Positions 15,001-62,570 of a stretch of DNA of 64,000 nucleotides are shown in pieces. The translations under genes were made by a program, and so were the position numbers. The DNA is from Candidatus Undinarchaeota archaeon (GTDB lineage: Archaea > Undinarchaeota > CAZWFW01): positions 6,339-70,338 of the forward strand of contig CAZWFW010000001.1 of assembly GCA_964633445.1 (NCBI GenBank), in the 5' to 3' direction. The number at the start of each line of letters is the position of its first letter. Within the stretch, counting starts at the first letter, position 1. The notes beneath the pieces were generated by a model. The model did no database searches. It was not told the origin of the DNA and worked only from the letters and a program-made list of their open reading frames with translations.

Positions 15001-16701
15001 TTCATAAGCATAAGTTCTATAGTAAGGATAACTGTATTTTCTGCAATCTTTTAAGACATATGCTCTTATAATAGCGTTCTGATATGAGGGCTTAGCTTTG
15101 ATAGTTAATTCAGCTTTTGCATCATTATCAAGCCTTACAGCATAGAAATCTGATGCATAAGATCCTAGAACACTCACATAAACGATTTCGTTTCTGTACT
15201 TCTCCTTTGCCAGTATGCCAAGCTTTATATCCTCGTTTTCTCTATATTCTTTCTTATCAGAGAAAACAACTATGTTTTTTTGCTCAATTTCATTAACTTG
15301 TGGTCTGCAATAAATACCCCTTCTGGAGTAATACCAGCAAGGTTTATAATTTAGGAAAATCTCTTTTTCTGCTGAATAAACACCATCATCTATGCTGAGT
15401 GTTATTTTAACATATTCAACTCCGCTTGGGTACCTGAACTTTATTAAAAACCCAGCACCCCTGCTTGCACCTTCGTCTAGTACCTCCTCCTGCAACTCGT
15501 TATCAACAATTTTATATCCTATAAGCTTCCATGTAGTTCTCGCATTACTTGCCTCTGTGCTATCAGGATATGCTATTGAAACGTAAACTTCAACATTGTC
15601 CCCCTCTCTATAAACTTCCTTGTTTTTCTGAATTTCTACATTAAATGCAGATGTTACGATGGGTATTTTCTTTATAGCTGAGGTTTCTATACCTAAAACT
15701 TCGCTTTTTGCTTCTATTACAAGGGACTTTGGATATCTCCAATAATGGTGGTAGTAATAGGGAATCTCAAAGGGAAATCTAACTATGCAAATTCCTTGGG
15801 AATTTGTTATACAGCTATCCTGTTGAATAATATTCCTTTCACGCCACCCAGATACTTCCAAATAAACCTTGTAATCGATTTTCTGGTTAACAACTGGATC
15901 TCCGAAAATATAAGTCAATTTGAATTTTACCTCAAACTCCTTATCATCCCTTGTAATCCAGTTTTTGCTCAGAATATCTAATTTAGCCTCTGGTTTTTCG
16001 TATTTTCTTATCTCGACAACCAATTTTTCAGTAGTATTCCCATATAATGCTGTAAATGAATAGTTTCCAATCTCAGCTTCTTTATCTATAGGGAAGCTAA
16101 GGGAAAAATGACTAAAATCGTCTGTCTCAACATTTTTCTTAAAGATAATTCTATTAGACGGATTTCTTACTATTAAAGCAACGGTTTTATGAGTAATTGG
16201 TGCGTATGTTCCATTGATTTGCTGCCAAACAAAACCAGCAACCTTTATTTCCTGGCCTGGCTTATAAATTTTTCTATCTGAATATAAATATATCTTAGCT
16301 TTTCTTTTCTCGATCTTTATCATTCTAGAGATCTCTCTGCTCTTACCGTGGTGCCATGCTTTAACTTTAAGCTCATAATTCCCTTCTGGTAAGTCTGGCA
16401 AAGTTATTCTTGCCATACCTGCTTTATTTGCTATTACGGTTTCCTCAAAATCGCCAATCCCAAAAGTTATTTTTGCATAAGGTAGTGGTTTGTAATCGGG
16501 GGATAATGCCATAGCAAAACCGTTAAGCTCTTCACCAGCATATTGCGTATCAGATATTTCTAAAAGCAGATTTATTTTCGTGTATTTGTTGTATAAATAG
16601 AAAAGCTTAGATAACCATAGCGGTGATGAGAAAAGCAGAATGCTTAAAGCTATAAGAGATATTATCGCAAACTTCAATTTTCTAAAAGAAACTTTTTTCA
16701 T
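12064..16701 (-). CDS. alpha-2-macroglobulin-like thioester-containing protein with an internal multi-helix transmembrane module
   Basis: 1545 aa with a signal peptide and beta-rich MG-like repeats. IRYYFPDTALWKEII matches the A2M post-bait FPETWLW motif. Thioester motif GCVEQ is at nt 13403-13417. An alpha-helical TED-like region follows (YVLFGLAKAK, AYVTLALLESG, LSLIILAYEKAG). About 170 hydrophobic residues (roughly 6 TM helices) are encoded at about 14160-14665. Confidence 0.8.
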   Translation of the reverse strand: MKKVSFRKLKFAIISLIALSILLFSSPLWLSKLFYLYNKYTKINLLLEISDTQYAGEELNGFAMALSPDYKPLPYAKITFGIGDFEETVIANKAGMARITLPDLPEGNYELKVKAWHHGKSREISRMIKIEKRKAKIYLYSDRKIYKPGQEIKVAGFVWQQINGTYAPITHKTVALIVRNPSNRIIFKKNVETDDFSHFSLSFPIDKEAEIGNYSFTALYGNTTEKLVVEIRKYEKPEAKLDILSKNWITRDDKEFEVKFKLTYIFGDPVVNQKIDYKVYLEVSGWRERNIIQQDSCITNSQGICIVRFPFEIPYYYHHYWRYPKSLVIEAKSEVLGIETSAIKKIPIVTSAFNVEIQKNKEVYREGDNVEVYVSIAYPDSTEASNARTTWKLIGYKIVDNELQEEVLDEGASRGAGFLIKFRYPSGVEYVKITLSIDDGVYSAEKEIFLNYKPCWYYSRRGIYCRPQVNEIEQKNIVVFSDKKEYRENEDIKLGILAKEKYRNEIVYVSVLGSYASDFYAVRLDNDAKAELTIKAKPSYQNAIIRAYVLKDCRKYSYPYYRTYAYEYVSPKLVKGSYGVPCPYDEISIYVLPDKKLDVEIISDKKIYEPREEATIKFKVSKDNKPISALVSFAVIDKSVQILKENKFSPFEHYYANPAQSIRVSLTAIEVDRWKVNEIAEKLILLAIVIVLLTLALASVYLAKTGRARYLYAILPTLILGAAFILAVIIDVLGIGYVDEDAWATISTASLLGALVILKVKRRPTRYYLAGLAVPFSLLLLVISGASAFWILPIFIIALAILAAIRKDMRKPVLVCVAILSAIFVVVFLLIGMFLMGGMVMRAAPQYLTYEEWAAGIGAPKTLEEEARGVGYIPKGIEIRYYFPDTALWKEIIAKDGTAEVKFKLPDSITTWQVLALAASKNCDVGSNNDAEVIAKKDFFIKVHVPSEATVGDEVTISARVFNFLDESIDAYVTLIQSKKFVILDNETKVVRLRPNEAKEVSWYVKLTSYGSANVTVVAYSGEYSDGVRKQILITPKIEPITLSFSGVLESNYVKKEFEIYENAIPEFTNAKILIQPTLLSISIVGVERLARYPYGCVEQTMSSLYPDIIIKMLLKEKGMLDEEFEKKLDDMIAKGLQRIYSFRHSDGGWGWWENDATNEFMTAYVLFGLAKAKQVGFYVDGSIIDGAQRVLMQRQEYNGAWHGSHWLRGNDVAMTAYVTLALLESGVSKDDYHIQKALEYLEDHENVEDAYTLSLIILAYEKAGRDTSHLAEKLYDMAVNNHWHGKALAGDVETTACAIRALLATENVKYYGIVQEAIKWLIENKRYYGWYTTKDTAEALLAIYEYSKITKEQKADYKLSIFVNGKEVQSFTVTEENKDELYIIDVTKYLETGRNVIEIRKEGIGNPYYTIIVKQTTETLQILPEKDIIVEKSYNKTVARVGDVVNVKISIRGNDIYYVILEDYIPPGFRVKETSLKDDLSENIVRYEINGNKISWFINHLGEASIEYELVAEYPSVVYAKPAVAYGMYSDIRGQSEAITLIIK

Positions 16702-20504: not shown

Positions 20505-23500
20505 TTGAGGGGATTCCAACATACAGGTATGAAAGCCATTTTCAAAGACTTTTGCCCAAACTGTAATGGGGAAATAGATGATGAGAGACTTTGGCATAAA
20601 GTTCCTTGCGAAAAGTGTTTACCCTTATCTTTGGACAAAGTTAAAAAACTAAGCGAAAATCTCAGCAATTTAGAATTTAAAGAGCTAATTTACGAGTTAC
20701 TAAATGAAAGAGGAACTCTAAAGAATTATTCAAAAATATATGAGCTGGAGAGAAGGGTTGAGGAAGTTAACAAGATTTTTGAGGCATGTATAGGCAGCGG
20801 TCTTTGGTCTGCCCAGAAAGTTTGGGTAAAGAGAATTTTAAACAAAGTAAGTTTTGCTTTGATAAGTCCTACAGGAATGGGAAAAACAACGTTTGGTATG
20901 GTAATGTCCCTTTATTTGGCAAAGCATGGTAAGAAATGTTACATAATTTTGCCAACGACGATCCTTGTTAAACAAATAAACGATAGACTTGAAGAGTTTA
21001 TGGAAAAAAGCGGGGTTAGAGTTAGAGTTTTAGCATATCATACCGAATTAAAAAAAGGCGAGAAAGAGGAGGTAAAGGAGAAGATAACTAAAGGAGAATT
21101 CGATATATTAGTAACATCAAGTCAATTCCTAGCAAGAAACTTTGAGATAATAAAAAAGCAGAGATTCTATTTCATATTTGTGGATGATGTTGACGCTTTT
21201 CTTAAAGCATCCAAAAACATTGACAGGGTTTTGTTTCTCATGGGATTTTCTGAAGATGCCATCAAAGCCGCTATGGAGATTATTAAAATTAAAAAACAGT
21301 TAGTTGTCAGGAGGGATAAAAATCTCGAAGATAAGCTAAAAACTCTTGAAAGAAGTTTGGAGGAGTTTAAGGATGTCGAAAGCATTCTTGTGGTTTCCTC
21401 AGCAACTGGTAAGGTTAAGGGCGATAAGGTAAAAGTTTTTAGAGAATTACTCAACTTTGAAGTTGGCACTGCAAGGGAAGGGGCTAGAAATATAGAGCAT
21501 ATTTGGCTTGAAGGCAAGCTAGAGGATATCTGTGAAATAATTAGGAAAATGGGTGGTGGTTGCTTAATATTTGTTCCTATAGATGCTGGTACAGAGCTTG
21601 CCAAGGAAATTGAGCAGTTTTTAATTTCGAAAGGAATTAACGCTAAAGCTGTTCATGCAAAAACTAAAAAGAGTGTTATTGATCGCTTTGCTAAAGGGGA
21701 AATTGATGCGTTGATAGGAGTAGCGAGTTATTATGGTGTTATTGTGAGAGGATTGGATATTCCCGAGAGGGTTAGGTATGCAATATTTTATGGAATTCCG
21801 AAATTCAAATTCTCCTTAGAGATAAAGGAGAGGAATCCGATTAGGGTTCTGTCCCTGCTATCTACCTTAAGGGAATTTTCAAGTAACAAAGAAAGAGTTG
21901 ATAGAATGATTATAAAATTAAGAAGGATACTGTCAAAGCTGTCACCAGAGGATTTGAGGAAAGTTGAGGAAAGCCAACAGTTAAATGATTTTTTGGTGTA
22001 TGTTAAGCAAGAATTTGAAAAAGCTGCTGAATTTTTGCAGAATATGCTCAAAAATAAGGAGGTTCTAGATAAAATAGGAAAAAGCCCGTATATTTCTCTA
22101 GTTAAAGAAAGTGAAGGATTATTCATAAAAATACCTGATGTAAGAACATACATACAGGCTACAGGTAGAACTTCAAGAATGTATGCTGGTGGTATTACCA
22201 AAGGAGCTTCCTTTGTCTTTATAGATGATGAAAAGGTGTTTAATGGTTTGAAAAGGCAGCTGATATTACTTGATGAGGAGTTCAAAAGTATTGGTGAAGT
22301 TGATCTTAAGAAGATTAAGGAGGAGATAGAAAGGGATAGGAAATTGCTTACTGAAATCAGGGAGGGTAAAGTTAAAGTTGAGGCAAAAGAACCCGTTAAA
22401 TCTTGTTTGTTTATTGTTGAATCCCCAAACAAAGCAAAAACAATTGCAAATTTCTTTGGTAGACCATCTAAGCGTAGAATTGGTGAATTGGTTGCTTATG
22501 AAACACATACTGGAGATTTCGCTTTAACAATAATTGCAACTGGTGGACATATTTTAGATTTAGCTCATGATGGTATATATGGGGTTAAGAGGGTTAATGG
22601 TAAATTTATTCCGATCTACACGACAATTAAAAAATGTAGGAAATGTAATGAGCAATTTGTTGAGGGTGATGTATGCCCGAATAAGAAATGCAATTCAAAG
22701 GACATATTTGATAGCAGGTATACAATTGAAGCATTAAGGCATCTTGCAGATGAAATAGGATATGTTATAGTCGGTACAGATGCTGATTCGGAAGGTGAGA
22801 AAATTGCTTGGGATGTAGCAACATTAATCGCACCTTTTGCAAAAGAAATAAAGAGAGCTGAGTTTCACGAGGTTACTAGGAGAGCTATTTTGAACGCTTT
22901 GGAAAATCCAAGAGAAATTGACGAATTTAGGGTTAACGCTCAAATTGTAAGGCGTATTGAGGATAGGTGGATTGGCTTCTACTTAAGCCAAGATTTATGG
23001 AGAATATTTGAAAAGGGTTGGCTTTCGGCTGGTAGGGTGCAAACGCCAGTACTTGGCTGGGTAATTGAGTTTGAGAAGCTTGCAAGAAAGAAGAAGTCAG
23101 TAGTTAGGATAGTACTTGAGAATGATGCTGTTGTGGATTTTGAGTTTAAAAACATTAGACAGGCTAAGAAATTTGCTGAAGATGTTGAGGAAGCGTATGT
23201 GGAAATACTTGAGGAGAAAGAGGAGAAAATAAAGCCGAATCCCCCATATACAACTGATACTTTACTAAGGGACGCTTCTCGCTTCTTCAGACTTGATGCT
23301 CCAAAGGTTATGCAAATTGCGCAGGATCTTTTCGAGGCTGGGTTATGCTTGACACCAGACACCTACGTAATTATGCATGATGGAAGTATTAAGAAGATAG
23401 GCGATATCTCCGAAAATGAAAATGTTTTGGGCTTGAACAATCTACATGAGATGCCTGCAAAGGTACTAAGGTTTTGGAAGATACCGTATAAAGGTGTGAT

Positions 23501-25598
23501 CAAAGAAATAGTGCTTGAGAATAATTATAGCATAAAGGCTACTCCAGATCACGGAATTTTTGTTTACAGAGATGGTAAATTTGGTTGGGTTTCAGCTAAG
23601 AATGTAAGGGTTGGAGATTATGTGGCAGTAGCTTTCAATGTCAACATTAAAAGAGAAAGCTTAGGTTTACTCGAATTATTGGCGAAGCTTGGAATATTGG
23701 ATATATGCGTCGAATTCAAGAAAGATTCAAAACTATTTGAAAAGCTTAAAAAGAGAGTTGATGGAAGTAAGGCAAGTGCAAAATATAAGTATATGGGAAG
23801 CAGGGCAATTCCTTTAAAGTATTTAGATAAATGGGGCATTGATCTAAAAGCCGTTGAAAGGGAAGCAACCACCATTTCCAAGCAGAGATCCTCAGCTGAA
23901 AAAATTCCAATTTTTAAATTAAATAGCGATTTTTGGTACTTCGTTGGACTGGTTATGGGTGGTGGAACAATCGAAGAAGAGAAAATTGTAATATCTCAAA
24001 AAGATGCTAAGGAAATCAAAAGGATACTTGAAAATGTGTTTCCATTTGCCAATGTGAGGATTGCTGGCACGCAAGTTTACCTTGCTAATTCGATTATAGC
24101 AGAGATTTTAAGAAAACTGGATGTAAGGGGCAAGTTAAATGGTTTAGTGTTTTCACTGCCAGAGGATTGCATAAATGCTATGATAGCTGGATATATTGAT
24201 GCTGATGATAGCATTTCGTTGAAGTTTGACAAGAAATGTTGTAAAAACAATCTTAGAATTGTTATAAGTAATAAAGAAAGGGAAAAAATTGAGAAAATTG
24301 GATATTACCTATGCTTGATTGGTATTTTGAACACATTGCATAAGGATGAAAAAACAGGTATTTGGAAACTAATTTTAGGCAATAAATCGCTTAAGACGTT
24401 TAAAAAGAAGATTGGTAAACATCTTAGAACTAGGAGAAAGATTTTTGAGAAAGCATACAAAGCATGCGCAAGTGAGCATCTAGAGTCAGATTTTGTTCCG
24501 TTTAGTAAATTTTTCAAGTTACTTAAATTTGGGAAAGGTGTTGAGGGTAGAATTCTCAAAGAACTTTGCACTGATGCTCGAAATTTGGATGACTGTGCAT
24601 GTATACAAAGAGAAAAGCTTAAGAAGGTAGTTAAATTGGCTGAAGACACTGATGTTAAGACATTTTTGCTTGAACTGTTAAATGCCAATGTTTCATGGGT
24701 TAGAGTGAAGGAGGTTAGGAATAGGCAATATAACGGATATGTTTACGATATAACAACTGCAACATCAAACTTCTTTGCTAATGCGATACTTAACCACAAC
24801 TGCACCTATCACCGTACAGATTCAACAAGAGTATCAAAGGAAGGTTTGAACGTTGCTAGGGAATTGGTTGAGGAAAGTTTTGGCAAGGAATATTTCAAAG
24901 CAAGAATTTGGTATATGGAAGGTGCCCATGAGTGCATAAGGCCCACAAAACCACTTACGAGAGAGTATCTCGAGGAGTTGATTAATACTGGCGCGCTAAC
25001 ATTGCCTAGACAATTAACCTTTTGGCATCTTGTAGTTTATGAGCTCATTGTGAATAGATTTATGGCAAGTCAGATGAGAGAGGCTAGAGTTGTTAAACAG
25101 AAAGTAAAAGTAAGTGTTAAAGATGTTGAAAAAGAAGTTGAAGGATACGCTAAGGTAGCTGATGAAAGTTTCCTAAAGATAACTAAGGTACCAATGATAC
25201 CCGAGTTTAGGAATGGTAGGGTAAAAGTTAAAGATGTAAAGGTAATGAGGGTACCATCATCCAAGTTGCTTACGCAAGCGGATCTCGTTGCTTTAATGAA
25301 GGAGAGGGGTATAGGTAGGCCATCAACCTATGCTACAATAATTGCTAAATTGTTCAAAAGGGGTTACCTTTACGAGCTTGGTAAGGAGAAGAGGATTAAT
25401 AAAATTGTGGCAAGGAAAATTGGCAAGGAAGTTTTTCAGTATTTGATTAGCAATTATCCTCATTTAATTAGCGAGGAGCGTACAAGGAAACTTGAGGAGG
25501 ATATGGATATGATAGAGGAGGGTAAGAAAGATTATCAGGAAGTTCTAAATGAAATTTACAAGGAAATCTTTGAGCCAGAAATACTCAAGCAATATTAA
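20505..25598 (+). CDS. rgy: reverse gyrase, interrupted in-frame by an intein
   Basis: N-terminal zinc finger CPNCNGE..CEKC. Helicase-like domain with Walker A SPTGMGKTT and a DExx-type box FIFVDDVD. C-terminal topoisomerase IA domain including the active-site motif LTREYLEELI. The predicted extein is 1212 aa, typical for reverse gyrase. The track start is a TTG at 20505; an in-frame ATG lies at 20529. Confidence 0.9.
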   Translation: MRGFQHTGMKAIFKDFCPNCNGEIDDERLWHKVPCEKCLPLSLDKVKKLSENLSNLEFKELIYELLNERGTLKNYSKIYELERRVEEVNKIFEACIGSGLWSAQKVWVKRILNKVSFALISPTGMGKTTFGMVMSLYLAKHGKKCYIILPTTILVKQINDRLEEFMEKSGVRVRVLAYHTELKKGEKEEVKEKITKGEFDILVTSSQFLARNFEIIKKQRFYFIFVDDVDAFLKASKNIDRVLFLMGFSEDAIKAAMEIIKIKKQLVVRRDKNLEDKLKTLERSLEEFKDVESILVVSSATGKVKGDKVKVFRELLNFEVGTAREGARNIEHIWLEGKLEDICEIIRKMGGGCLIFVPIDAGTELAKEIEQFLISKGINAKAVHAKTKKSVIDRFAKGEIDALIGVASYYGVIVRGLDIPERVRYAIFYGIPKFKFSLEIKERNPIRVLSLLSTLREFSSNKERVDRMIIKLRRILSKLSPEDLRKVEESQQLNDFLVYVKQEFEKAAEFLQNMLKNKEVLDKIGKSPYISLVKESEGLFIKIPDVRTYIQATGRTSRMYAGGITKGASFVFIDDEKVFNGLKRQLILLDEEFKSIGEVDLKKIKEEIERDRKLLTEIREGKVKVEAKEPVKSCLFIVESPNKAKTIANFFGRPSKRRIGELVAYETHTGDFALTIIATGGHILDLAHDGIYGVKRVNGKFIPIYTTIKKCRKCNEQFVEGDVCPNKKCNSKDIFDSRYTIEALRHLADEIGYVIVGTDADSEGEKIAWDVATLIAPFAKEIKRAEFHEVTRRAILNALENPREIDEFRVNAQIVRRIEDRWIGFYLSQDLWRIFEKGWLSAGRVQTPVLGWVIEFEKLARKKKSVVRIVLENDAVVDFEFKNIRQAKKFAEDVEEAYVEILEEKEEKIKPNPPYTTDTLLRDASRFFRLDAPKVMQIAQDLFEAGLCLTPDTYVIMHDGSIKKIGDISENENVLGLNNLHEMPAKVLRFWKIPYKGVIKEIVLENNYSIKATPDHGIFVYRDGKFGWVSAKNVRVGDYVAVAFNVNIKRESLGLLELLAKLGILDICVEFKKDSKLFEKLKKRVDGSKASAKYKYMGSRAIPLKYLDKWGIDLKAVEREATTISKQRSSAEKIPIFKLNSDFWYFVGLVMGGGTIEEEKIVISQKDAKEIKRILENVFPFANVRIAGTQVYLANSIIAEILRKLDVRGKLNGLVFSLPEDCINAMIAGYIDADDSISLKFDKKCCKNNLRIVISNKEREKIEKIGYYLCLIGILNTLHKDEKTGIWKLILGNKSLKTFKKKIGKHLRTRRKIFEKAYKACASEHLESDFVPFSKFFKLLKFGKGVEGRILKELCTDARNLDDCACIQREKLKKVVKLAEDTDVKTFLLELLNANVSWVRVKEVRNRQYNGYVYDITTATSNFFANAILNHNCTYHRTDSTRVSKEGLNVARELVEESFGKEYFKARIWYMEGAHECIRPTKPLTREYLEELINTGALTLPRQLTFWHLVVYELIVNRFMASQMREARVVKQKVKVSVKDVEKEVEGYAKVADESFLKITKVPMIPEFRNGRVKVKDVKVMRVPSSKLLTQADLVALMKERGIGRPSTYATIIAKLFKRGYLYELGKEKRINKIVARKIGKEVFQYLISNYPHLISEERTRKLEEDMDMIEEGKKDYQEVLNEIYKEIFEPEILKQY
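23346..24800 (+). mobile_element. intein (485 aa) with LAGLIDADG homing-endonuclease domain inside the reverse gyrase topoisomerase domain
   Basis: It starts with Cys (FEAGL|CLTPD). Block B TxxH (ATPDHGIF). LAGLIDADG-type motifs DFWYFVGLVMGGG and INAMIAGYIDADDS. It ends ..ILNHN followed by +1 Cys (CTYHRTD). All coordinates are in frame with the host ORF. Confidence 0.8.
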
Positions 25599-44085: not shown

Positions 44086-45207
44086 TTATTTTTTAAATTT
44101 TCTAATCTCCTCTAATTTTTTGCTGAATTCCTTTAGAGAATTAGCAAATCCCTCAACACTTGCTGTAACTTCCTCAGCCCCAGCTGCGTTCTCTTCAGCT
44201 GCTGCAGCAATTTCTGTTATTGTTGTCGAAACTTGTTGTATATTTTTAGCTTGTTGTTGTTGGGATGCAGAAACTTGCTGCATTTGTGCAGCAATTCTCT
44301 GAATGGCTTCAGCAATAGTTCTAAATGCTAGTAAAGCATTAGCAGATGTTTTGACAGCCTTTGTAACACTACTTTTGGCTATTCCTGCAGATTCTACAGA
44401 TTTAGCGCTATAAGTTTGTATTTCTCCAAGTAAATCGGAAATTTTTGTTGCAGCAACTCTTGAATTTTCAGCCAACTTTCTAATCTCATCAGCAACTACT
44501 GCGAATCCTCTACCAGCTTCACCAGCTCTTGCAGCTTCTATAGCAGCATTTAATGCTAGTAAGTTAGTTTGTAATGATATATCTTTTATAGTTTCGACAA
44601 TTTTTCCAATTTCCTGACTTTTACCACCCAAATTTTTAATTATATCAGAAAGCTCCACAACAATTTTCTCGCTATTTTTAAGCTCCTCTATAGCTTTTTC
44701 AGCGCCTTCCTTACCCCTAGTAGCACTTTTACTTATATCAACTGCAAGTTTTTCTGCTTTCTGAATACTTGAGCTAATTTGTTGTGAAGCTGCTGAAAGC
44801 TCTATAATTGCTTTTCTAATGTCCTCAATTTGAATAGATTGATTTTGAGCATTTTTTGCCATTTGCTGAGTAACAGCATTAATTTCCTTGGAAACATCGA
44901 CAATATTTGAAAAAGACTTCATCATCTTTTCTATTTCGCTGGAAATACCTTCTTTTACTTTCACTTCAATAGAGTCTAAAACATCGTTTAAAGCTTGTGC
45001 AAAAACTTTGAAATTAGGATCGGGAATCTCATCTGGGTTTACTCTTGCCTTTATATTTCCCTCCTTGTATATTCTAAGCAAAACTTCACATATCTTACCA
45101 ATACTTTCACTAATTTCAGAGGCTACTCTTCCCACTTCCTCAGGTTTGTTAACATGTTCAAAAACTTTAGCTTTTAACTCGTTTATGTCCAAAAATTTCT
45201 CAGTCAT
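44086..45207 (-). CDS. methyl-accepting chemotaxis protein, soluble (no TM helices)
   Basis: Highly conserved signalling hairpin [34 protein letters not shown]. Methylation-helix heptads. No hydrophobic segment. Confidence 0.85.
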
Positions 45208-52690: not shown

Positions 52691-55600
52691 CTAAAATAAT
52701 CTAAGTGCCCTGCACCTTGAGAAATAGGCGAGTGCCAGAATAACAGCTAAAATAATTGCATAAGTGTTTATACCACTTGCAATCTTAATCGTTACGGGAA
52801 TCCAAGGAGTCACTTGAACGTCCTCCACTATATCAACACTTATTGATTTTTCAGGATAATCACATATATCGCCATAAGGGCCTTTTTCACAAACTTTAAT
52901 TCCAATAGTGTCAGTACCAGCCTGTGCACCCAATAGAGTAATAGTAACTTTAATTTCGCTAAAACCTTTTACATTCTGTATGCAGAACTCAGAAATACCA
53001 CACTTAAAGATGCCTGATCCTGTATCAGGATCAGCTCCTGAAACATCCTCTATTTTAACATTACCTTTGTTTATGTCTATGGTTATCGTAATATTTCTTT
53101 CCTCCTTTAATCTTTTACCTATTTTTAGCAGAATTTCTCTATCTTGACCCAAAGGGATTTCTACTTTAGTCTGGGAAATAGCAGCAGATATGCAAGCGCC
53201 ACATCCACTATTTATTCCGCAATCTACATCCTCCTCATTGCAAATGTTATCATCCTTAATATTATTCTCGCAATGATTATCGTACCAAGTTCCATTTAAG
53301 CAAACCCCTCCTTCATATATATGGCACCAGTTATCTGTTGGCTTGTCGCAGCATTTGTTAAAGTTAATATCCGTGTTATATGGAGAGTCATCATCCCAGT
53401 GATGTCCAAAGGCTTCGCAGATTGCCGAGTCCAGCTCTTTCTCATATTCGCTTCCCCAATATATCTTTCCAGCTGACGAATTATATCTCGATCCAGTTAG
53501 GTTAACGCATGCATATTTGGTGCCATTATATACAGTAACAATTTCATTCAAATCTTTTTCTTTAACAAAATTACTCTCATCAGAGCTCACGTCAAAGTAA
53601 CACTTGTATACATAAGATTGAGTACCTTCGTCAGAATCTGAACCATAACCAGATGTTATCGTATCGTTACCTGGGCAGAGGTAGCAGTTGTAGCAAAGAG
53701 ATGGCGTATCTGTTGCATTTACTCTCCAAATCTCGTTTAGTTTACATGATTTGTAAACAGTTATGGAATGCTTACTTTCCTCCTCACCAAAAGTACCATC
53801 CGTGCTTAATATGCTTAACCTTGTTTTAAGTTCAGATTGATTAACAATACCATCACCATTTTCGTCTGCTGTAAATGGTAGGTCTTCAACTTCACCAACA
53901 CCACAGTGAGCTACCTCATAAAACCCTCCTCTACTTCTTTTTATGCATTTATCGAAATTATAAAGGCATTCTGCTAAAGTTAGTGGTTCCAGATCTTGAA
54001 AGCTTGCATATGCCCACGCTTGACTGCAGTTATAAGAAATTTGCTCGGTTATGTTAAGTGATACTGTGAGGTCATCCAACCATGATAAAGCAAGATCCAA
54101 CTTTATGTCTGCAATCTGGTTAATCTTAATAGTTAGATCTCCAACAAGATCGTTTTCCCAGCCTATTGTGAGATTTAATGTGATGTTGGCCAAATCCTTA
54201 TTTACAGGAGAAACTTCTATAGAGTTAACACTCTCGGATGCTACACTTGGCACATATCCCTCGCAAAGGGAATATTTTTTCTCAATTTCATCTTTTAACT
54301 TGCTTTTAATTTGGGAATCAGTTACAACGCCTTTATTTTTAATATCATTGTAAACAGTGTTGTAGTTTGTGTAGTCCTCAGCATAATTCTCAAATTCAGT
54401 GGAATTCATACCGAATATTTCAGTAGTATTTATATCTGAAAGATTCATCATTATATTAAAGGTTTCAGTTGGTAGTGGTGAAGGAAGACTTGCAGAAACG
54501 CTTTCTATACCTCCATCTACGCCGCATTTACTCTTTATTAATGCTTCAAAAGATTTCCAATTTGAATTTATATCATTAGCTAGCTCAGTAGCATTGCAAT
54601 AACCCCAGTCAGTTGCTATGAACCCACAAATTTTTGTTACTTCGTAATACGTGTCTGGTGTAACAGCTATGTTAGCTGGTGGTTTTTCAACATAGAATAT
54701 TGGGTTATACGAGGGGCAAACACTTGGACTTATATAACCAAGGGAGGTTAGTTTGTTAATCAGTTTTTGCTTTAGAACAGTTTTATCTATATAACCAGAA
54801 GAATTTAGTTCATCAAAAGTCTCATTATAATTTACAGGATTTTCGGCATAAGTCTTGAACTCGGAGGCACTTAAGCCAAATAGTTTTGTTACGTTAACAT
54901 CATCTAAAGTTAATAGAACATTAAAAGATGTATATCCTGCAGGAACATTTGCTTGGACATCCTTAATATTTTCCTCCTTAACACCACACTCGGTAGCAAT
55001 GGCACTTTTAAAACTCTGCCAATTACCATTTATATCATTAGCTAAACTATAAGCATCACAATAACCACTCCAACTGCTACTTGTTGCTATAGAAACGCAT
55101 GAGGAGTATTGAGTTACAGTTAATTCACATTCTGTAATATTTGGAGGCACTTCATGCTGTCCTAGGACAAATGATTCGGAAAAATAAATATCTCCAACTC
55201 TTTTTGGACCCTCTGTCTCGGTAGGAACATAAATACCTTTGGCTGTAAGATTTACCCAACCAGGAATTCCCCCACTTCTACCAATCTCAACAGTCTTGTT
55301 AATAGCTTCTATGAGCGCTCTTCTCCATGCCCAACTTTTATACCCTTTACCTATCAATTTTAGCGTATAATTTTTCCTAAAAACTTGCTGTTCAGGAATT
55401 GTAAAATTTTCCAGAATTCCGGTATTACCTGCAGTAAGATTTAAGCTTTGATGAGCAACAAATATACCATATTCAGTGCTTAAAACATTACTGCCATCTA
55501 AAAGGCTTGCATTAACTCCTAACATTGGAATTCTGTCTACACAAGCTTCTATAAATGCTGAGAAAGTGACAGTGACATTCTCACCGGAACGCCATATATT

Positions 55601-57562
55601 GTTTGCATCTCTTATCCCAGGGTTGCTTAATCCAAGAGATAAACTATCAATTGATGTTAAATTTAAACCAATACGTGACAATTCTTTTTCTAAAACATTT
55701 TCTCGAAGCTCTCCAATAACTCTACACATTGGACAAATCCATCCTCCCGAAATTGTAAGTGTGGAACTGGACCCAGAAGTAAGTGAGCAACCCCCACTGA
55801 AAGGATTGCAACCTTCAGAAGGGATGGTATAGGATACTATGCATGGCTGCGTTACGGTTGTGCTACCTGCCTCATTTTTATATTCCCATTTACATTGGGG
55901 AGGATCACACCATGTTCCATATTGTACACATCTCCTACAACTTTCAGCAGCCTTTATTTCAGTTTTCTCAACTGGATGGGGGCAAAAACTTAAGGAAGCT
56001 GCACCAAAACTACAACTTGCATTTTTATATAAGCTTAATGGCTGGTATAGCGTTGTTGTTTCTCCTCCACTACAACATGGCCAAGGATTACTTGGAGAAT
56101 AAAGACATCTCGCACATTCCGAGGTACAACATCCTGCGTATGCAAATTTCGTATTAAGAAACAAAGTGAATAAGAGTAGAACGATTGGAAGGTATTCCTT
56201 CCTTCTAAAGAACTTGAAGAATAACATCGTTGCTAATATAATGGTTAGAGCTACTAAAATATATACTTTGTTCGACTTCTTAACTTCAACTTTTTCCCCA
56301 AAACCTGGAGTTTCCTCACCAGTTTCTTTTGCAGGCATGAAGCTTATGCAATCCATACAATTAAGTTTTTTCTCAAAATCATCGCAAATTCCATCATCAA
56401 AGCATTGATTGGCATTCAAATATTTGACTCTCCCATCCTCAGCAAGTATTATCTCAGGTTCTAAATCATAATACTCTATTTGCTCTTCATCAAAAACACG
56501 ACCATCTTTTCCTAATTTTACAACAACCTTATATTTCAACAAATCTTCTTTGGCTCTAAATTTGAACGTAAAACTTTCTGGTTTAAAAGTAAGGTCTATT
56601 GTCTTATTCTCACTAAACACCTCCTCATTATTCCTATAGATTTCAAGCAAAAGATATGCATTGCTGACAATTGATTTATCTGCAGGCCCTACAACCGTAA
56701 CGTTAATTTCAACTTCATCACCTTTTTTATAGACGTCCTTCTTATTTTCAATACTTAGTATTGTGCCACCTTCACCCATGATAACAGCTCTGCATTCGCT
56801 CGTAGCTAATAAATTGTTCTGCAAATCGTAAATCTCTATAACAACTCTATAAGTTCCTGGGATTGTTATGCTAATAGGAATCTCAATAACTTTTCTAGCA
56901 TTACCTTCTAGCTCTCCAATATCAACCTCCTTCTCAAAGATAACATTGCCAGAGTAAGTACCAATCGCTTTTACTAATCCCTTTACTTTTATGCTAAAAG
57001 GATTTTTATTTATTAAGGGAGCGATTAGACGAATTTCGGCTGATGGTGGTATTTCTCTCCCCCAATCTGAATAGGAATACCATACAATTCTCCTGACAAT
57101 TGTGTCTGAGCGTTGAATTTGAATAACTTTTAAATAAACAGTTTTCTCAAATGAAACCTTTGGTAAGGTTGCAATGTCGCTTAAGTTCACATCACTTGAT
57201 AACCATGTAAGAGGCTTTCCAAACTCGTATACTTTGCAATATACCTTATAATTATCTCTTGGAAGTTTCTCTGGTAGTGTTAAGCTAAAACTTAAATCTT
57301 TTACCTCTCTTGAATCTAGAAGCACTGTCTCAGTATTTCTTGCGAAGATGCTGGAATCAGATCCTGCAAGAATGACCTCAACGTTAAATTTCTTTACGAC
57401 GTATTCCGTATTAGCAACTCTTACAGAAACATCTAAAGCATTACCTACATTCTCAGCTTCACATTGAAGCAAAGTAACACAATTTGCCACATTTAATATA
57501 ACAAGCTGTGCTAGGCAAATAATAAAAAAAACCTTAAAATTTTTCAATCCTCGCCTAACCAT
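52691..57562 (-). CDS. giant cysteine-rich surface protein (signal peptide, Ig/CARDB-like beta domains, internal TM/second signal-like segment, tandem about 115-aa repeats, C-terminal TM anchor)
   Basis: 1623 aa with an N-terminal signal. There are more than 60 Cys residues concentrated in two regions. An internal hydrophobic pair lies around aa 432-480. Duplicated modules [29 protein letters not shown] / [29 protein letters not shown]. The C-terminal [17 protein letters not shown] is a TM anchor. Confidence 0.65.
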
Positions 57563-58800: not shown

Positions 58801-61278
58801 ATGCTAAAGATGATAAGTGCAAACGCCATTCCCAAAATATTTAAGGGAAAACTTGGTGTTGTTATAGTTGTGGTATTTTTAGTAATTTTAGTTGGTCTCT
58901 TAATTCACCATACAACTGTCTCGAATGTCTCTAACGCATCCTCAACTGAGGAGGTAGGTCAGGAAACGCCGTCTCCTGAATCATCTCCCGAAATAACTAA
59001 AGAAATTGAGGAGGAAATTAAGAAAGAGGAAGAACTTGAGGAGTCTGACAAAAGCCCTCCAGAGATTTTTGTGAAGTTATCTAAGGAAAAGGTTAAAAAA
59101 GGAGATACTGTTGACATTGAGGTTACAGCAAGAGACGAGTCTGGAGTTGCTAGTGTTGTTGCGGAGGTTGAAACTGAGGGAACCTTCAATTTACAACTTG
59201 CTGAGGGTAGTGAATATAGTGGTATATGGAGGGCCTCATTTGTCATTGTTTCCGATTTGGAGAAGGATAAGAAGTATAAGATAGTTATTAAAGCATTTGA
59301 TAGAAGAGGAAATTTGGCCGTAAAAACTTTGGAATACTACGATCCAGTTACCAAAATTGTGATACCTAGAGCTGATGATGATATGAACTATCAAACCCAG
59401 GACTCAGATTGTTCATCGAATCCTGAATATAAATATTATACTTGCAGCAATTGCGATGAAAATGATATTCCTGGTTGGTATATGCTTAGCTATGATGATT
59501 CCTCATGGCCAACGGGCTACGCACCTTTTGGTCAACCTGCTTGGGGAGAATGCACTCAAGCCTTAACTTCAGCTCCAGATGATTTGTTTGTAAGGAAGTG
59601 GTTCTTTATTCCTGGCACTCCTCAAGGCGCTACATTAAGATTGAGTTATGATGATGGGATTAAATGCTACATTAATGAGAATGTTGTAATTAATGTTATA
59701 AGCGAAGCTCATGGCCCTTCATATTGGAATAGGCAAGTTACTATATCTAGCTCTGTTTTGAAGTCTGGCCAAAATCTTTTAACTTGTTGGGTTGCTAATG
59801 GTGGTGAGAATAGTGGCAGTGGAGGAGGCTGGCTTGATTTAGAGCTAGAAGTTACTTATGAACCTATATATATAACGAATGTTACAGTTGAAACAGATAA
59901 ACAAGCCTACGATCCTGGTGATGACGTCAACATAACTGTTACAGTCTTCTCGGACTCCACAAGACTAAGCAACGTTCCCGTTACCATAAAGATCTATGAT
60001 CCAGACGAAAAAATTGTTTTAGATAAACAAGCGGTAACTGATAACAACGGTGAAGTGAAACTCACATATACTTTACCTGTCGATGCGAAGTGGGGTGTTT
60101 ACGTAATTAATGCTACTGCTGAAATGGAAAATACATTCAGCACAATTAAAAAATTTGGTGTTGGTCCAGCTGTTGATATATTTGACATAAAAACAACTCC
60201 TCAAAAGGTTAAGGCACCTGCTAATGTTACAATAACTGCAGACATTTCAAATATAGGTAGCATGAACCTTAGCAATTTGGTTGTTGAAACAAAGATTATT
60301 GGAGGGTCATGGTTTGATGCTTCGTGGAATTACAGAGTACCTATAACAATAACCGAGCAAAGTGGGAATGTTTTGACAGACTATCAAGTTCTGGTTACTT
60401 TAGATACCGCTTCTTTGATTTCAGCAGGGAAAATGCGAAGTGATTGCGGAGATATAAGGTTTGCTGACTCAAATGGAAATACATTAAGCTATTGGATAGA
60501 GTCTGGTTGTGGTTCAGCTAATACAAAAATCTGGATAAAAGTTCCAGAGATTATGGCTAATAAGAATACAACAATTTATGTTTACTATGGGAATCCTAAC
60601 GCAGAAAGTATGAGTAATGGAAATGATGTATTTTTAGACTATGAAGAAACACTTTACTGTCAAGGTTCAACTGCTTCAGGGGGATGTTATGTAACGTTCT
60701 CTCTTTCTAATGAAAAATTTGCTCCTTATCAATCTTCAGGCTATGGTGTATTAGATTGGAAAATGGCTGGAGACTTTAATTCCGGAGGAAGTTATTCATC
60801 CTCGGGCTGTAGCTGTGTCTCAGAAAGCTATGAAAGAGCAAGATTATGTGCAGATTCAACTACTTGTTCAGATACTCATCCAAATTGTCTTGGATGCTAC
60901 TCAACTGGATATCAAGATTGTACGCTGCGCTCTCCTTCTGGCTTCCCAAAGGATGTTAGCAGCTATATAATAGATAAAACTTCTGTGTCTTTTGCAACAG
61001 ACACTACGAATGAAGTAAACTATAATCCTGGCTGTGGTTATTATTACAAATTTGAGTTTCATTTGAAAGCTAAAACTCGCAAGTATGTCTCTCCAGAACC
61101 AACAACAAGTGTAGGTGATGAGGAAACTTTAAGCTCTGTAATACTGGCATCACTTTCAAAAACAATCTCAAGCTTAGCAGTAGGCCAAACAATAAATGAT
61201 TTCCAATTAGGTAAAGTAGATGTTGACTGCTGGGATGTAGGGAATTATAACATAGTCATAACCGTTAAGCAAGGATGA
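58801..61278 (+). CDS. secreted/membrane-anchored protein containing a DUF2341 domain and Cys-rich C-terminal region
   Basis: N-terminal TM LGVVIVVVFLVILVGLLI and an acidic/Ser-rich linker. SWNYRVPITITEQSGNVLTDYQVLVTLDTASL...CGDIRFADSNGNTLSYWIESG...KIWIKVPEIMANKNTTIYVYYGNPNA matches the DUF2341 consensus. Confidence 0.6.
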   Translation: MLKMISANAIPKIFKGKLGVVIVVVFLVILVGLLIHHTTVSNVSNASSTEEVGQETPSPESSPEITKEIEEEIKKEEELEESDKSPPEIFVKLSKEKVKKGDTVDIEVTARDESGVASVVAEVETEGTFNLQLAEGSEYSGIWRASFVIVSDLEKDKKYKIVIKAFDRRGNLAVKTLEYYDPVTKIVIPRADDDMNYQTQDSDCSSNPEYKYYTCSNCDENDIPGWYMLSYDDSSWPTGYAPFGQPAWGECTQALTSAPDDLFVRKWFFIPGTPQGATLRLSYDDGIKCYINENVVINVISEAHGPSYWNRQVTISSSVLKSGQNLLTCWVANGGENSGSGGGWLDLELEVTYEPIYITNVTVETDKQAYDPGDDVNITVTVFSDSTRLSNVPVTIKIYDPDEKIVLDKQAVTDNNGEVKLTYTLPVDAKWGVYVINATAEMENTFSTIKKFGVGPAVDIFDIKTTPQKVKAPANVTITADISNIGSMNLSNLVVETKIIGGSWFDASWNYRVPITITEQSGNVLTDYQVLVTLDTASLISAGKMRSDCGDIRFADSNGNTLSYWIESGCGSANTKIWIKVPEIMANKNTTIYVYYGNPNAESMSNGNDVFLDYEETLYCQGSTASGGCYVTFSLSNEKFAPYQSSGYGVLDWKMAGDFNSGGSYSSSGCSCVSESYERARLCADSTTCSDTHPNCLGCYSTGYQDCTLRSPSGFPKDVSSYIIDKTSVSFATDTTNEVNYNPGCGYYYKFEFHLKAKTRKYVSPEPTTSVGDEETLSSVILASLSKTISSLAVGQTINDFQLGKVDVDCWDVGNYNIVITVKQG

Positions 61279-62309
61279 AGAATTTAAAGCTAATTATTAT
61301 AGCTTTACTATTTTTACTCTTTGCTGAAAATTCTTTTTCACAAACAATTTATGGAAAGGCTAAGTCAGAATTATGCATAATTTATTCTTGTATTCCTGAG
61401 AACTTCACTTATGCTCAAGCTCTGCAGGAAATGAGAATAATCTATTCATGTATACCTAAAAATTTCACTTATACAGAAACTTCTGGAAAATTTAGGGTAA
61501 TCTATTCATGTATACCTAAAAATTTCACTTATACACAAATTTCTGGAAAAATGAGGGTAATTTATTCTTGCATACCACCTAATTTTATTTATCAAAGTTA
61601 CGAATTCGAAGGTTTTGAAATAAATGAAACCTGCCCACCCCAGCCAGCTGATCTGAAAATTCTAGACTATGATATTATTCCATTGTCAAGCCCCTTGGAG
61701 TCATTACAGAAATTCAGGCTCGAGGTTCTTGTCACATCAAACACAACGTGCTATGCAACTCTACTATTTAAGGATTACTCCACGTCTTTTTATATTCGTG
61801 CAAATGAAACAAAGGAGCTAGCAATTTATTTCGATGAAAATGTAAGTACAGAAAGCTTAACAAGGAAAATAGAAATAAGCTATCCACTTGAAGTTAATGA
61901 AAGCGATAATAAAAAAACAATAGTTCTTTACGTTCAGAACCCACCTAACGTTTTGAAAGCAAACGAAACATATGATTTTTCAGCCTCTGAGGGTAAGATA
62001 ATCGCAAGTGTTGATCTGAAATCTAGTGATGTTTGGACATGGATTGAGATTGAAGAAAACGATGATGCGAGGGGAATGAGTATAAAAAAGATTGTTAGGC
62101 AGGATGGAAAAGTTATTGAGAGATGGTTTAGAATAGGAAACAAGGTATACATTTTTGACGATCCATCAACCTACATCGTATACTATGTGAAACCATATCT
62201 GCCTGTAGTTGCCTATGAAACTAGCTTATTCATAGCAGTTCTAATTTCACTGGCAATAGGGATAATTGTTAGTTTGAGAACGGTTAGACGAAGTAAGATA
62301 GGAAGTTAA
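61275..62309 (+). CDS. secreted protein with four tandem 20-aa repeats and C-terminal TM anchor
   Basis: Signal peptide MKNLKLIIIALLFLLFAENSFS. Repeats (I/V)IYSCIP.NFTY....(M/F)R encoded by exact 60-bp tandem units. C-terminal hydrophobic helix LFIAVLISLAIGIIVSL. 4-nt overlap with the upstream gene. Confidence 0.55.
   Translation: MKNLKLIIIALLFLLFAENSFSQTIYGKAKSELCIIYSCIPENFTYAQALQEMRIIYSCIPKNFTYTETSGKFRVIYSCIPKNFTYTQISGKMRVIYSCIPPNFIYQSYEFEGFEINETCPPQPADLKILDYDIIPLSSPLESLQKFRLEVLVTSNTTCYATLLFKDYSTSFYIRANETKELAIYFDENVSTESLTRKIEISYPLEVNESDNKKTIVLYVQNPPNVLKANETYDFSASEGKIIASVDLKSSDVWTWIEIEENDDARGMSIKKIVRQDGKVIERWFRIGNKVYIFDDPSTYIVYYVKPYLPVVAYETSLFIAVLISLAIGIIVSLRTVRRSKIGS
61376..61600 (+). repeat. 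tandem direct repeat, period 60 bp, about 3.7 copies (coding)
   Basis: The units starting at 61381, 61441, 61501 and 61561 are in exact 60-nt register. Copies 2 and 3 are more than 90% identical (ATCTATTCATGTATACCTAAAAATTTCACTTATACA...). Confidence 0.8.
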
Positions 62310-62319
62310 GTATTAAGGT

Positions 62320-62417
62320 CTGTGAACTACCCACCGTTTTTAATGGGTGGCTTCCCCCAGATAAACACCACCACGGCTGGGGTCGGGCTGTTCACGAGCC
62401 CCGATGCCACCCATCAA
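62320..62417. other. GC-rich intergenic island 3: structured element upstream of the hypC promoter
   Basis: Nested helices: GGGUGGC...GCCACCC (62345-51 / 62406-12) enclose CCCCAG..CUGGGG and GGGCU-GUUCACG-AGCCC. The GUUCACGA hairpin loop is the same as the one in island 1 (33268-33284, opposite strand). Confidence 0.3.
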
Positions 62418-62446
62418 AGGTATTTAAATATTTCCCACCTCCTCCC
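62418..62446 (+). promoter_or_regulatory. consensus archaeal TATA box (TATTTAAATA) module oriented toward hypC
   Basis: AGGTATTTAAATATTTCCCACCTCCTCCC is nearly identical to the minus-strand module at 33169-33198. TATA at 62421-62430 lies about 140 nt upstream of the hypC ATG. Confidence 0.4.
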
Positions 62447-62570
62447 TAATTCACCCACCGATTGAAATCAGGGGTACTCTTAGCGACATTTTTATGGAAA
62501 TATTTATACTCTGCAAGACATTATTTTAACCTCTCAAATTTAGAAATACAGGGAAGTCAATGAAAAATTT

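What the first reader, a model, noticed from the sequence alone, without database searches (positions are those of the whole stretch)
58801..62309. Secreted-protein pair downstream of nth: a DUF2341 protein and a protein with exact 60-bp tandem repeats
The 825-aa protein carries a textbook DUF2341 block (SWNYRVPITI...DIRFADSNGNTLSYWIESG...IYVYYGNPNA). This domain is usually seen attached to LamG/ExbB-associated bacterial proteins. Here it sits in an archaeal Cys-rich surface protein. It is translationally coupled (4-nt overlap) to a 344-aa protein built around four head-to-tail 20-aa repeats (IIYSCIPKNFTY..) and a C-terminal anchor. Together with the giant Cys-rich protein on the other side of ndk/nth, this forms an envelope/adhesion gene island.
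Basis: partly seen in the sequence, partly recalled or inferred. Interest (0 to 1): 0.5.

Follow-up and report, generated by a model that had tools for sequence, protein, structure and literature searches.

The report
Paired archaeal surface adhesin-like genes
Two overlapping genes of a heat-loving archaeon encode membrane-anchored surface proteins that look like a two-part adhesin with an exchangeable binding head; the pair is real and confined to one lineage, but this kind of protein is already known in archaea.

Summary
Both ORFs, their ATGA overlap and the DUF2341 hit (E=3e-24) are real. The repeats are not exact. There are four 60-nt units: units 2 and 3 are 93% identical with a 38-nt exact core, and the other pairs are 48-68% identical.

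DUF2341 in an archaeon is not unusual. The family is called MJ1470/DUF2341 in the literature, and archaeal DUF2341 proteins were already proposed as type IV pilus adhesins.

The large protein reads: N-terminal membrane anchor, acidic linker, Ig-like domain, an unannotated ~170-aa beta-sandwich, MG2, DUF2341, a hypervariable Cys-rich head, and a conserved C-terminal module. The small protein reads: signal peptide, four Cys- and sequon-bearing 20-aa repeats, two Ig-like sandwiches, and a C-terminal anchor.

The same overlapping pair occurs three more times in one related MAG, each in a different neighbourhood. The head is swapped between copies and the repeat count differs (3, 4, about 5). The small protein has no other relatives among 1.84 billion representatives.

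The unannotated sandwich occurs only in DPANN archaeal proteins, where it is usually nested inside DUF2341.

Most likely this is a two-subunit surface adhesin or lectin. The function is inferred, not shown. The "adhesion island" claim is not supported. Interest is modest.

The parts
58801..61278 (+). Large-subunit gene (825 aa; alternative start 58810 gives 822 aa)
   Evidence: ORF. The identical 822-aa product P0001 appears in public assemblies.
58852..58908 (+). N-terminal hydrophobic segment (aa 18-36), read as a signal-anchor; an acidic linker follows (aa ~47-90)
   Evidence: It is the only hydrophobic window in the protein. AF2 models a helix at aa 15-40. There is no Pilin_N hit.
59062..59355 (+). 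Ig-like domain 1 (aa 88-185)
   Evidence: Weak Big_7 hit. AF2 models beta strands at aa 89-192. The region is conserved in the paralogues.
59356..59868 (+). Unannotated ~170-aa beta-sandwich domain (aa 186-356; motifs ADDD, LTSAPDDLFVRKWF, YDDG.RCY, CWVANGGENSG)
   Evidence: Alignment A4. No Pfam family matches. Weak PA14 and rhamnosidase-N similarity. Fold matches to the GH2 N-terminal sugar-binding plus Ig domains. Found only in DPANN MAGs.
59887..60138 (+). MG2 (macroglobulin-type Ig-like) domain (aa 363-446)
60316..60648 (+). DUF2341 domain (aa ~506-616; Pfam core 548-616). The loop G569-A573 is the site where other DPANN proteins carry a nested domain
   Evidence: Pfam E=3.1e-24. AF2 pLDDT 85-93.
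60649..61095 (+). Hypervariable Cys-rich head (aa 617-765), ending in RKYVSPEPTTSVGDEE
   Evidence: 10-35% identity to the paralogues, against 80-94% in the flanking domains. Ten Cys. No Pfam hit. The same slot holds a true PA14 domain in L016.
61096..61275 (+). Conserved C-terminal module (aa 766-825, ...VDCWDVGNYNIVITVKQG)
   Evidence: 48-82% identity to the paralogues. It is found only in proteins followed by the small-subunit gene.
61275..62309 (+). Small-subunit gene (344 aa), overlapping the large-subunit stop by ATGA
   Evidence: Only two other 50%-identity clusters exist among 1.84 billion representatives.
61378..61617 (+). Four 60-nt units encoding 20-aa repeats R(I/V)IYSCIP(K/E)NFTY...; each has one Cys and three carry an N-F-T sequon
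   Evidence: One unit is deleted in L004.
61641..62192 (+). Two Ig-like beta-sandwich domains (aa ~123-220 and ~225-306)
62199..62288 (+). Invariant LPVVAYE motif, C-terminal transmembrane helix (aa 309-338), then a basic tail

Best explanation
The two genes form a co-translated operon for a two-subunit surface adhesin or lectin, specific to the lineage of a thermophilic archaeon. The genome carries reverse gyrase, and the nearest relatives of one domain are all DPANN.

The large subunit is held in the membrane by an N-terminal anchor. On a stalk of Ig-like and MG2 domains it presents two putative ligand-binding modules. One is an unannotated sugar-binding-like beta-sandwich. The other is a DUF2341 scaffold carrying an exchangeable Cys-rich head.

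The small subunit is a C-terminally anchored protein. It has a short Cys-containing repeat stalk that is probably N-glycosylated, followed by two Ig-like domains. It probably docks the conserved C-terminal module of the large subunit.

Paralogous copies differ mainly in the head, which would give different ligand specificities.

Shown: the gene structure, domain content, topology signals, conservation of the pair, and the mosaic variability.
Inferred: complex formation, glycosylation, disulfides, and an adhesion or glycan-binding function.
For: - The ATGA overlap is kept in four distinct cassettes.
- The C-terminal module of the large protein and the small-protein family co-occur in 4 of 4 distinct cassettes. 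Neither appears anywhere else in the 21 fetched loci.
- The two genes have diverged to a similar degree: 74% versus 65-70% identity to the L003 pair, and 41% versus 46% to the L005 pair.
- Identity along the large protein is mosaic. Against P0002, the stalk domains are 88-94% identical, DUF2341 is 50%, the head is 35% and the C-terminus is 80%. The head is 21% against L004 and 10% against L005.
- The head slot holds a genuine PA14 lectin domain in L016 and closes with the same RKY..PEP..G.EE motif.
- The domain at aa 186-356 gives fold matches to GH2 sugar-binding domains and weak sequence matches to PA14 and rhamnosidase-N.
- N-glycosylation sequons are enriched in the small protein: 9 observed against 2.5 expected, three of them inside repeats.
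- Topology signals are present in both proteins.
- DUF2341 proteins are already proposed as archaeal adhesins (PMC4858521). Hypothetical surface proteins of Nanoarchaeota show raised non-synonymous SNP density (PMC6142677).
Against: - No ligand, partner contact or localisation has been tested.
- The structure models are of low overall confidence (pLDDT 58.6 and 65.3), so the fold calls rest on parts of each model.
- The aa 186-356 domain fails every formal PA14 test: no Pfam hit and no hhalign match to a true PA14.
- All cassettes come from one narrow lineage, so strict co-occurrence may only reflect recent duplication.
- The organism could not be named, so an episymbiotic lifestyle is an assumption. 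The window also encodes an MCP-type receptor and hydrogenase maturation genes, which suggests a less reduced genome.
Confidence: 0.55

Rival explanations
1. The pair are structural envelope components. The C-terminally anchored small protein would act as an S-layer-type stalk and the large protein as an associated lattice or sheath subunit. Variability would reflect escape from viruses rather than ligand specificity.
For: - The small protein has a C-terminal TM anchor with conserved cysteines and many sequons. This resembles the S-layer-like proteins described next to archaeal surface systems (PMC4858521).
Against: - The related MAG holds three divergent copies, one lacking a whole domain. That is unusual for a lattice protein.
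- The family is absent from all other archaea searched.
- The S-layer fold match is no better than about fifty generic Ig-like matches.
Confidence: 0.2
2. The large protein is a type IV pilus-associated tip adhesin like the DUF2341 proteins of the Methanococcus Epd locus, and the small protein is an accessory pilus component.
For: - DUF2341 proteins are placed in archaeal T4P loci (PMC4858521) and lie among the Epd pilus genes hit in a screen for transformation defects (PMC10133366).
- Relatives that share the aa 186-356 domain carry class III pilin signals: the two adjacent proteins in L009 and P0003, which has a weak Pilin_N hit (E=0.0013).
Against: - The window protein has no Pilin_N hit and no KG|xSPIIA-type signal.
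- The small protein has an ordinary Sec-type signal.
- No pilin, secretion ATPase, TadC or prepilin peptidase was found among the ORFs of the 64-kb window that were scanned, nor next to the three paralogous cassettes.
Confidence: 0.1
3. The pair serves nutrient capture or protection rather than adhesion: glycan binding for polysaccharide scavenging, or a macroglobulin-like protease trap.
For: - The protein has an MG2 domain and a sugar-binding-like sandwich.
- A complete alpha-2-macroglobulin homologue is encoded elsewhere in the window.
Against: - The large protein has no catalytic, A2M, TED or thioester domain.
- MG2 here is a single Ig-like spacer.
- No glycoside hydrolase or transporter is linked to any of the four cassettes.
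Confidence: 0.1

Closest known systems
Archaeal DUF2341 proteins of type IV pilus loci (arCOG03508; M. maripaludis MMJJ_08210)
   Same: A large exported archaeal protein with a DUF2341 domain and a proposed adhesin role.
   Different: This protein has no class III signal and no pilus genes nearby. It carries MG2 and a new beta-sandwich, has an N-terminal anchor, and is coupled to a private partner gene.
Giant DUF2341-rich surface proteins of DPANN archaea (L006-L013) and of Patescibacteria (PMC11809585)
   Same: The DPANN proteins share DUF2341 and the aa 186-356 domain at 48-55% identity. For the Patescibacteria proteins a host-interaction role has been suggested.
   Different: In those DPANN proteins the aa 186-356 domain is nested inside DUF2341 and is sometimes circularly permuted. 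Here it stands alone. Those proteins are 1,000-4,200 aa and have no partner gene and no C-terminal module.
Bacterial DUF2341-LamG proteins and ExbB/MotA-type channel subunits with DUF2341 (PMC12505986; P0007, P0008)
   Same: They share the DUF2341 domain. A lectin-like module follows it in P0007 and P0008.
   Different: This protein has no Laminin_G_3 domain and no MotA/ExbB channel, and it is archaeal.
PA14-type and GH2-N-type carbohydrate-binding beta-sandwiches in fibrillar adhesins (Flo/Epa, MpPA14)
   Same: A putative sugar-binding sandwich displayed on an Ig-like stalk, with a tandem-repeat region and paralogue diversification.
   Different: The sequence does not meet the PA14 model, and no calcium or sugar site was demonstrated.

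Membership tests
Pfam DUF2341 (PF10102) | HMM score above the gathering cut-off | tested here: met
   85.7 bits against a cut-off of 23.4, E=3.1e-24, aa 548-616.
Pfam MG2 (PF01835) | HMM score above the cut-off and an MG-type fold | tested here: met
Alpha-2-macroglobulin / thioester proteins | A2M, TED and thioester domains in addition to MG domains | tested here: not met
   The 825-aa protein has only MG2. A separate, complete A2M homologue lies at 12064-16701.
T4P-associated archaeal DUF2341 adhesins | Encoded in a locus with pilins, a secretion ATPase, TadC or a prepilin peptidase | tested here: not met
   None of these was found among the window ORFs scanned or next to the paralogues. Not every small ORF was scanned.
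T4P-associated archaeal DUF2341 adhesins | Class III (pilin-type) signal peptide | tested here: not met
   No Pilin_N hit. The N-termini of the paralogues lack a conserved KG|xSPIIA motif. Relatives in L009 and P0003 do have one.
Bacterial DUF2341-LamG / ExbB-linked proteins | Laminin_G_3 domain, or a fused or adjacent MotA/ExbB channel | tested here: not met
   No such hits in the protein or its neighbours.
PA14 domain (PF07691), for aa 186-356 | Pfam HMM match | tested here: not met
   No PA14 hit at E up to 10 for any of the five family members. hhalign against the true PA14 of L016 gives probability 0.5%.
PA14 / galactose-binding-like fold, for aa 186-356 | Beta-sandwich fold similar to known sugar-binding domains | tested here: inconclusive
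   The profile hits PA14 protein 6qdi at E=0.0033 and a rhamnosidase at E=0.052. The model matches GH2 N-terminal plus Ig domains. The N-terminal half of the modelled domain has pLDDT below 50.
Archaeosortase substrates (PGF-CTERM and similar), for the 344-aa protein | A recognised C-terminal sorting-signal model | tested here: not met
   No NCBIfam hit at E up to 0.1. The motif here is LPVVAYE followed by a TM helix and a basic tail.
Contingency-type variable tandem repeats | Unit number differs between close strains | tested here: not met
   Four near-identical strain variants all keep four units, and the two compared at DNA level are identical across the repeats. Differences appear only between paralogues: 3, 4 and about 5 units.

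The most novel reading that the evidence does not exclude
The unannotated aa 186-356 beta-sandwich, found only in DPANN archaea, and the exchangeable head held by DUF2341 together form a host-recognition system specific to DPANN. In this reading DUF2341 is a display scaffold whose loop or C-terminal slot accepts interchangeable lectin modules. The two-gene cassette would be its minimal, membrane-anchored, two-subunit form and would determine which host or surface the cell attaches to.
Probability: 0.25. Interest if true: 0.55.

Novelty: new variant of a known kind. Interest (0 to 1): 0.3.

Why it matters
If the reading is right, the cassette is a compact candidate for how small thermophilic archaea recognise surfaces or hosts, and it could be tested experimentally. 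It also gives DUF2341 a concrete role, as a scaffold that displays swappable binding modules.

It defines one new domain family and one orphan partner family that current databases do not annotate.

It does not change any established picture. Surface proteins rich in Ig-like and lectin-like modules, and DUF2341 proteins in archaea, are already known.

Tried and rejected
- The genome-contig scan with the small-protein alignment found nothing. The family is absent from the species-representative genomes.
- The search for homologous proteins with the domain alignment A4 returned nothing, not even its own source proteins. I treat this as a tool failure, not as evidence of absence. The genome and metagenome scans then found 8 and 7 loci.
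- The viral contig scan was negative, so a viral receptor-binding protein origin is not supported.
- NCBIfam gave no hits for either protein or for the giant neighbour.
- PDB sequence search of the DUF2341-to-C-terminus part found nothing.
- Naming the organism failed. Cluster look-ups for 17 window or related proteins returned no source names. Accession and sample identifiers appear in no held paper.
- The three weak extra hits of the deep HMMER search (P0018-P0020) are unrelated repeat proteins.
- The afdb50 fold library was unavailable.
- GC content of the pair matches the rest of the window, so recent foreign origin is not indicated.
- I considered and set aside a class III signal in the window protein (FKG|KLGVV). 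The motif is not conserved in the paralogues.
Full report
**Observation.** The window holds an 825-aa ORF at 58801-61278 (+) and a 344-aa ORF at 61275-62309 (+). They overlap by ATGA. Public gene calls use the ATG at 58810 and give an 822-aa product, P0001. Pfam confirms DUF2341 at aa 548-616 (E=3.1e-24). The small protein has no Pfam or NCBIfam match.

The tandem array is real but not exact. TRF reports period 60 and 82% matches. Of the four units at 61378-61617, units 2 and 3 share 56/60 nt with a 38-nt exact run. All other pairs are 48-68% identical. The large protein has 19 Cys, ten of them in aa 620-745.

**Anatomy of the large protein.** The following order comes from hydropathy, Pfam, paralogue alignment and an AlphaFold model. 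The model has mean pLDDT 58.6 but reaches 85-93 over DUF2341.
- One N-terminal hydrophobic helix (aa 18-36) and an acidic linker.
- An Ig-like domain (aa 88-185).
- A conserved ~170-aa domain (aa 186-356).
- A poorly modelled spacer.
- DUF2341 (aa ~506-616).
- A Cys-rich segment (aa 617-765) ending in RKYVSPEPTTSVGDEE.
- A conserved 60-aa C-terminal module.

**Distribution of the pair.** The small protein is close to an orphan. A full HMMER search of 1.84 billion representatives found only two real clusters, P0010 and P0011. The word-indexed search found the same ones. Both lie in one related MAG, GCA_054010715.1.

That MAG carries three cassettes (L003, L004, L005). Each has a DUF2341 gene overlapping a small-protein gene by 4 nt. 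Each sits in a different neighbourhood: HMG-CoA reductase and a helicase, DNA polymerase B, and a glycosyltransferase with diphthamide synthase. The MAG could be a mixed bin, so L003 and L004 might be strain variants rather than paralogues.

The C-terminal module of the large protein and the small-protein family co-occur in all four distinct cassettes. Neither appears anywhere else in the 21 loci fetched. The two genes have diverged by similar amounts.

**Repeat number.** Strain variants of the window sequence keep four units. L001 and L014 are identical to the window across the repeat DNA. L004 lacks exactly one 60-nt unit relative to L003 and the window. P0011 has about five degenerate units. 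Unit number therefore changes between paralogues, not between close strains.

**A mosaic, swappable head.** Against P0002, the stalk domains are 88-94% identical, DUF2341 is 50%, the aa 617-765 segment is 35% and the C-terminal module is 80%. Against L004 the last three values are 77%, 21% and 82%. Against L005 they are 61%, 10% and 48%.

In metagenome locus L016 the same slot holds a genuine PA14 domain (E=6e-7, above the Pfam cut-off). That slot lies after DUF2341 and before an RKYTSPEPTVSLGNEE closure. The L005 paralogue lacks the aa 186-356 domain entirely. This is the pattern expected of a ligand-binding head exchanged by recombination.

A scan of 185,579 species genomes found it in eight loci. 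All are DPANN MAGs: Iainarchaeum, Nanoarchaeia, Aenigmatarchaeota and Micrarchaeota. 241 million metagenome records gave seven loci, and viral contigs gave none.

In six of those eight genome loci the domain is nested inside a DUF2341 domain, between profile positions ~70 and ~74. This corresponds to the G569-A573 loop between two modelled strands in the window protein. In L011, L012 and P0006 the nested copy is circularly permuted. In P0005 it appears to lie inside a lectin-like domain, judged from the sequence and a sub-threshold legume-lectin hit just after the insert. In the window protein it stands alone between two Ig-like domains.

**Comparison with what is known.** DUF2341 is not a bacterial speciality.
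- The literature calls it MJ1470/DUF2341 (PMC11809585).
- Makarova et al. 2016 describe large DUF2341 proteins (arCOG03508) in the type IV pilus loci of Methanococci. They propose them as tip adhesins by analogy with PilY (PMC4858521).
- A DUF2341 gene lies among the Epd pilus genes recovered in a transposon screen for transformation-defective M. maripaludis mutants (PMC10133366).
- The domain also occurs in giant Patescibacteria proteins (PMC11809585) and in ExbB/MotA-type channel subunits (PMC12505986).

Some relatives here are pilin-like. L009 encodes two adjacent DUF2341 proteins with KG|(V/I)SPIIAV signals. P0003 has a weak Pilin_N hit. The window protein has no such signal. The window ORFs that were scanned encode housekeeping functions and no pilus machinery. 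They include reverse gyrase with an intein, HypF and HypC, TIP49, AspRS, aIF5B, Ndk and Nth.

**The 'island' idea.** The 1623-aa Cys-rich protein is separated from the pair by ndk and nth. It shares only a 56-aa stretch at 30% identity with the large protein. It has no counterpart next to the paralogous cassettes. The co-location is not conserved.

**Interpretation.** The best-supported reading is a co-translated, two-subunit surface adhesin or lectin. It would have an Ig/MG2 stalk, two putative binding modules and a partner that docks the conserved C-terminal module (confidence 0.55). Rivals are:
- a structural envelope role (0.2);
- a pilus-associated adhesin (0.1);
- a scavenging or protective role (0.1).

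Complex formation, glycosylation, disulfides and ligand binding are inferred, not shown. The organism could not be named. 'DPANN-affiliated thermophile' rests on reverse gyrase and on the taxonomy of the only relatives of one domain.

**Verdict.** This is a real, lineage-restricted surface-protein operon of a known general kind. It has two modest novelties: an orphan partner family, and a new domain confined to DPANN that is usually nested in DUF2341. Interest is 0.3.

Noticed in passing
window 62320-62480 (intergenic, between the 344-aa gene and hypC): A GC-rich island in a ~35% GC genome folds into a long imperfect hairpin or three-way junction (about 62343-62414). The minus strand gives z=-2.1 and the plus strand z=-0.67. 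Rfam finds nothing. The sequence is essentially identical in strain variants L001 and L014, so covariation could not be tested. It may be a structured ncRNA of a thermophile.
   Followed up: partly
window 12064-16701 (-): A complete alpha-2-macroglobulin homologue (1545 aa; MG2, A2M, TED and bMG10 domains) is encoded in this archaeal window. A 598-aa ORF and a Yip1-like ORF lie just downstream of it on the same strand.
   Followed up: no
window 20505-25598 (+): Reverse gyrase interrupted by an intein with a LAGLIDADG homing-endonuclease domain. This points to a (hyper)thermophilic host.
   Followed up: no
window 52691-57562 (-): The 1623-aa protein has 61 Cys, 32 sequons and an internal hydrophobic segment at aa 430-453 in addition to its terminal ones. 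Its Cys-rich module at aa ~1403-1457 is 45% identical to part of P0006, which its source labels as an Aenigmarchaeota protein.
   Followed up: partly
L011 7290-9176; L012 7134-10820; P0006: The aa 186-356 domain occurs circularly permuted (C-half then N-half) and nested inside DUF2341. L012 carries two such copies in one protein. This combines domain insertion with circular permutation.
   Followed up: partly
L009 2059-6129 and 6219-9473: Two adjacent DUF2341 proteins in an Aenigmatarchaeota MAG carry archaeal class III (pilin-type) signal peptides, so they are pilin-like DUF2341 proteins.
   Followed up: partly
window aa C549 and C570 of the 825-aa protein (60445-60447, 60508-60510): The two cysteines inside DUF2341 are present together in the window, L004 and L005 copies and absent together in P0002. 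This suggests a disulfide across the loop that serves as the insertion site in other proteins.
   Followed up: no
P0004 aa ~40-290: A distant relative carries its own, unrelated N-terminal tandem repeats of about 47 aa. They also contain Cys and N-x-T sequons, analogous to the small protein's repeat stalk.
   Followed up: no
window 44086-45207 (-): A protein with a methyl-accepting chemotaxis signalling domain. This would be unexpected if the genome were a strongly reduced DPANN symbiont.
   Followed up: no
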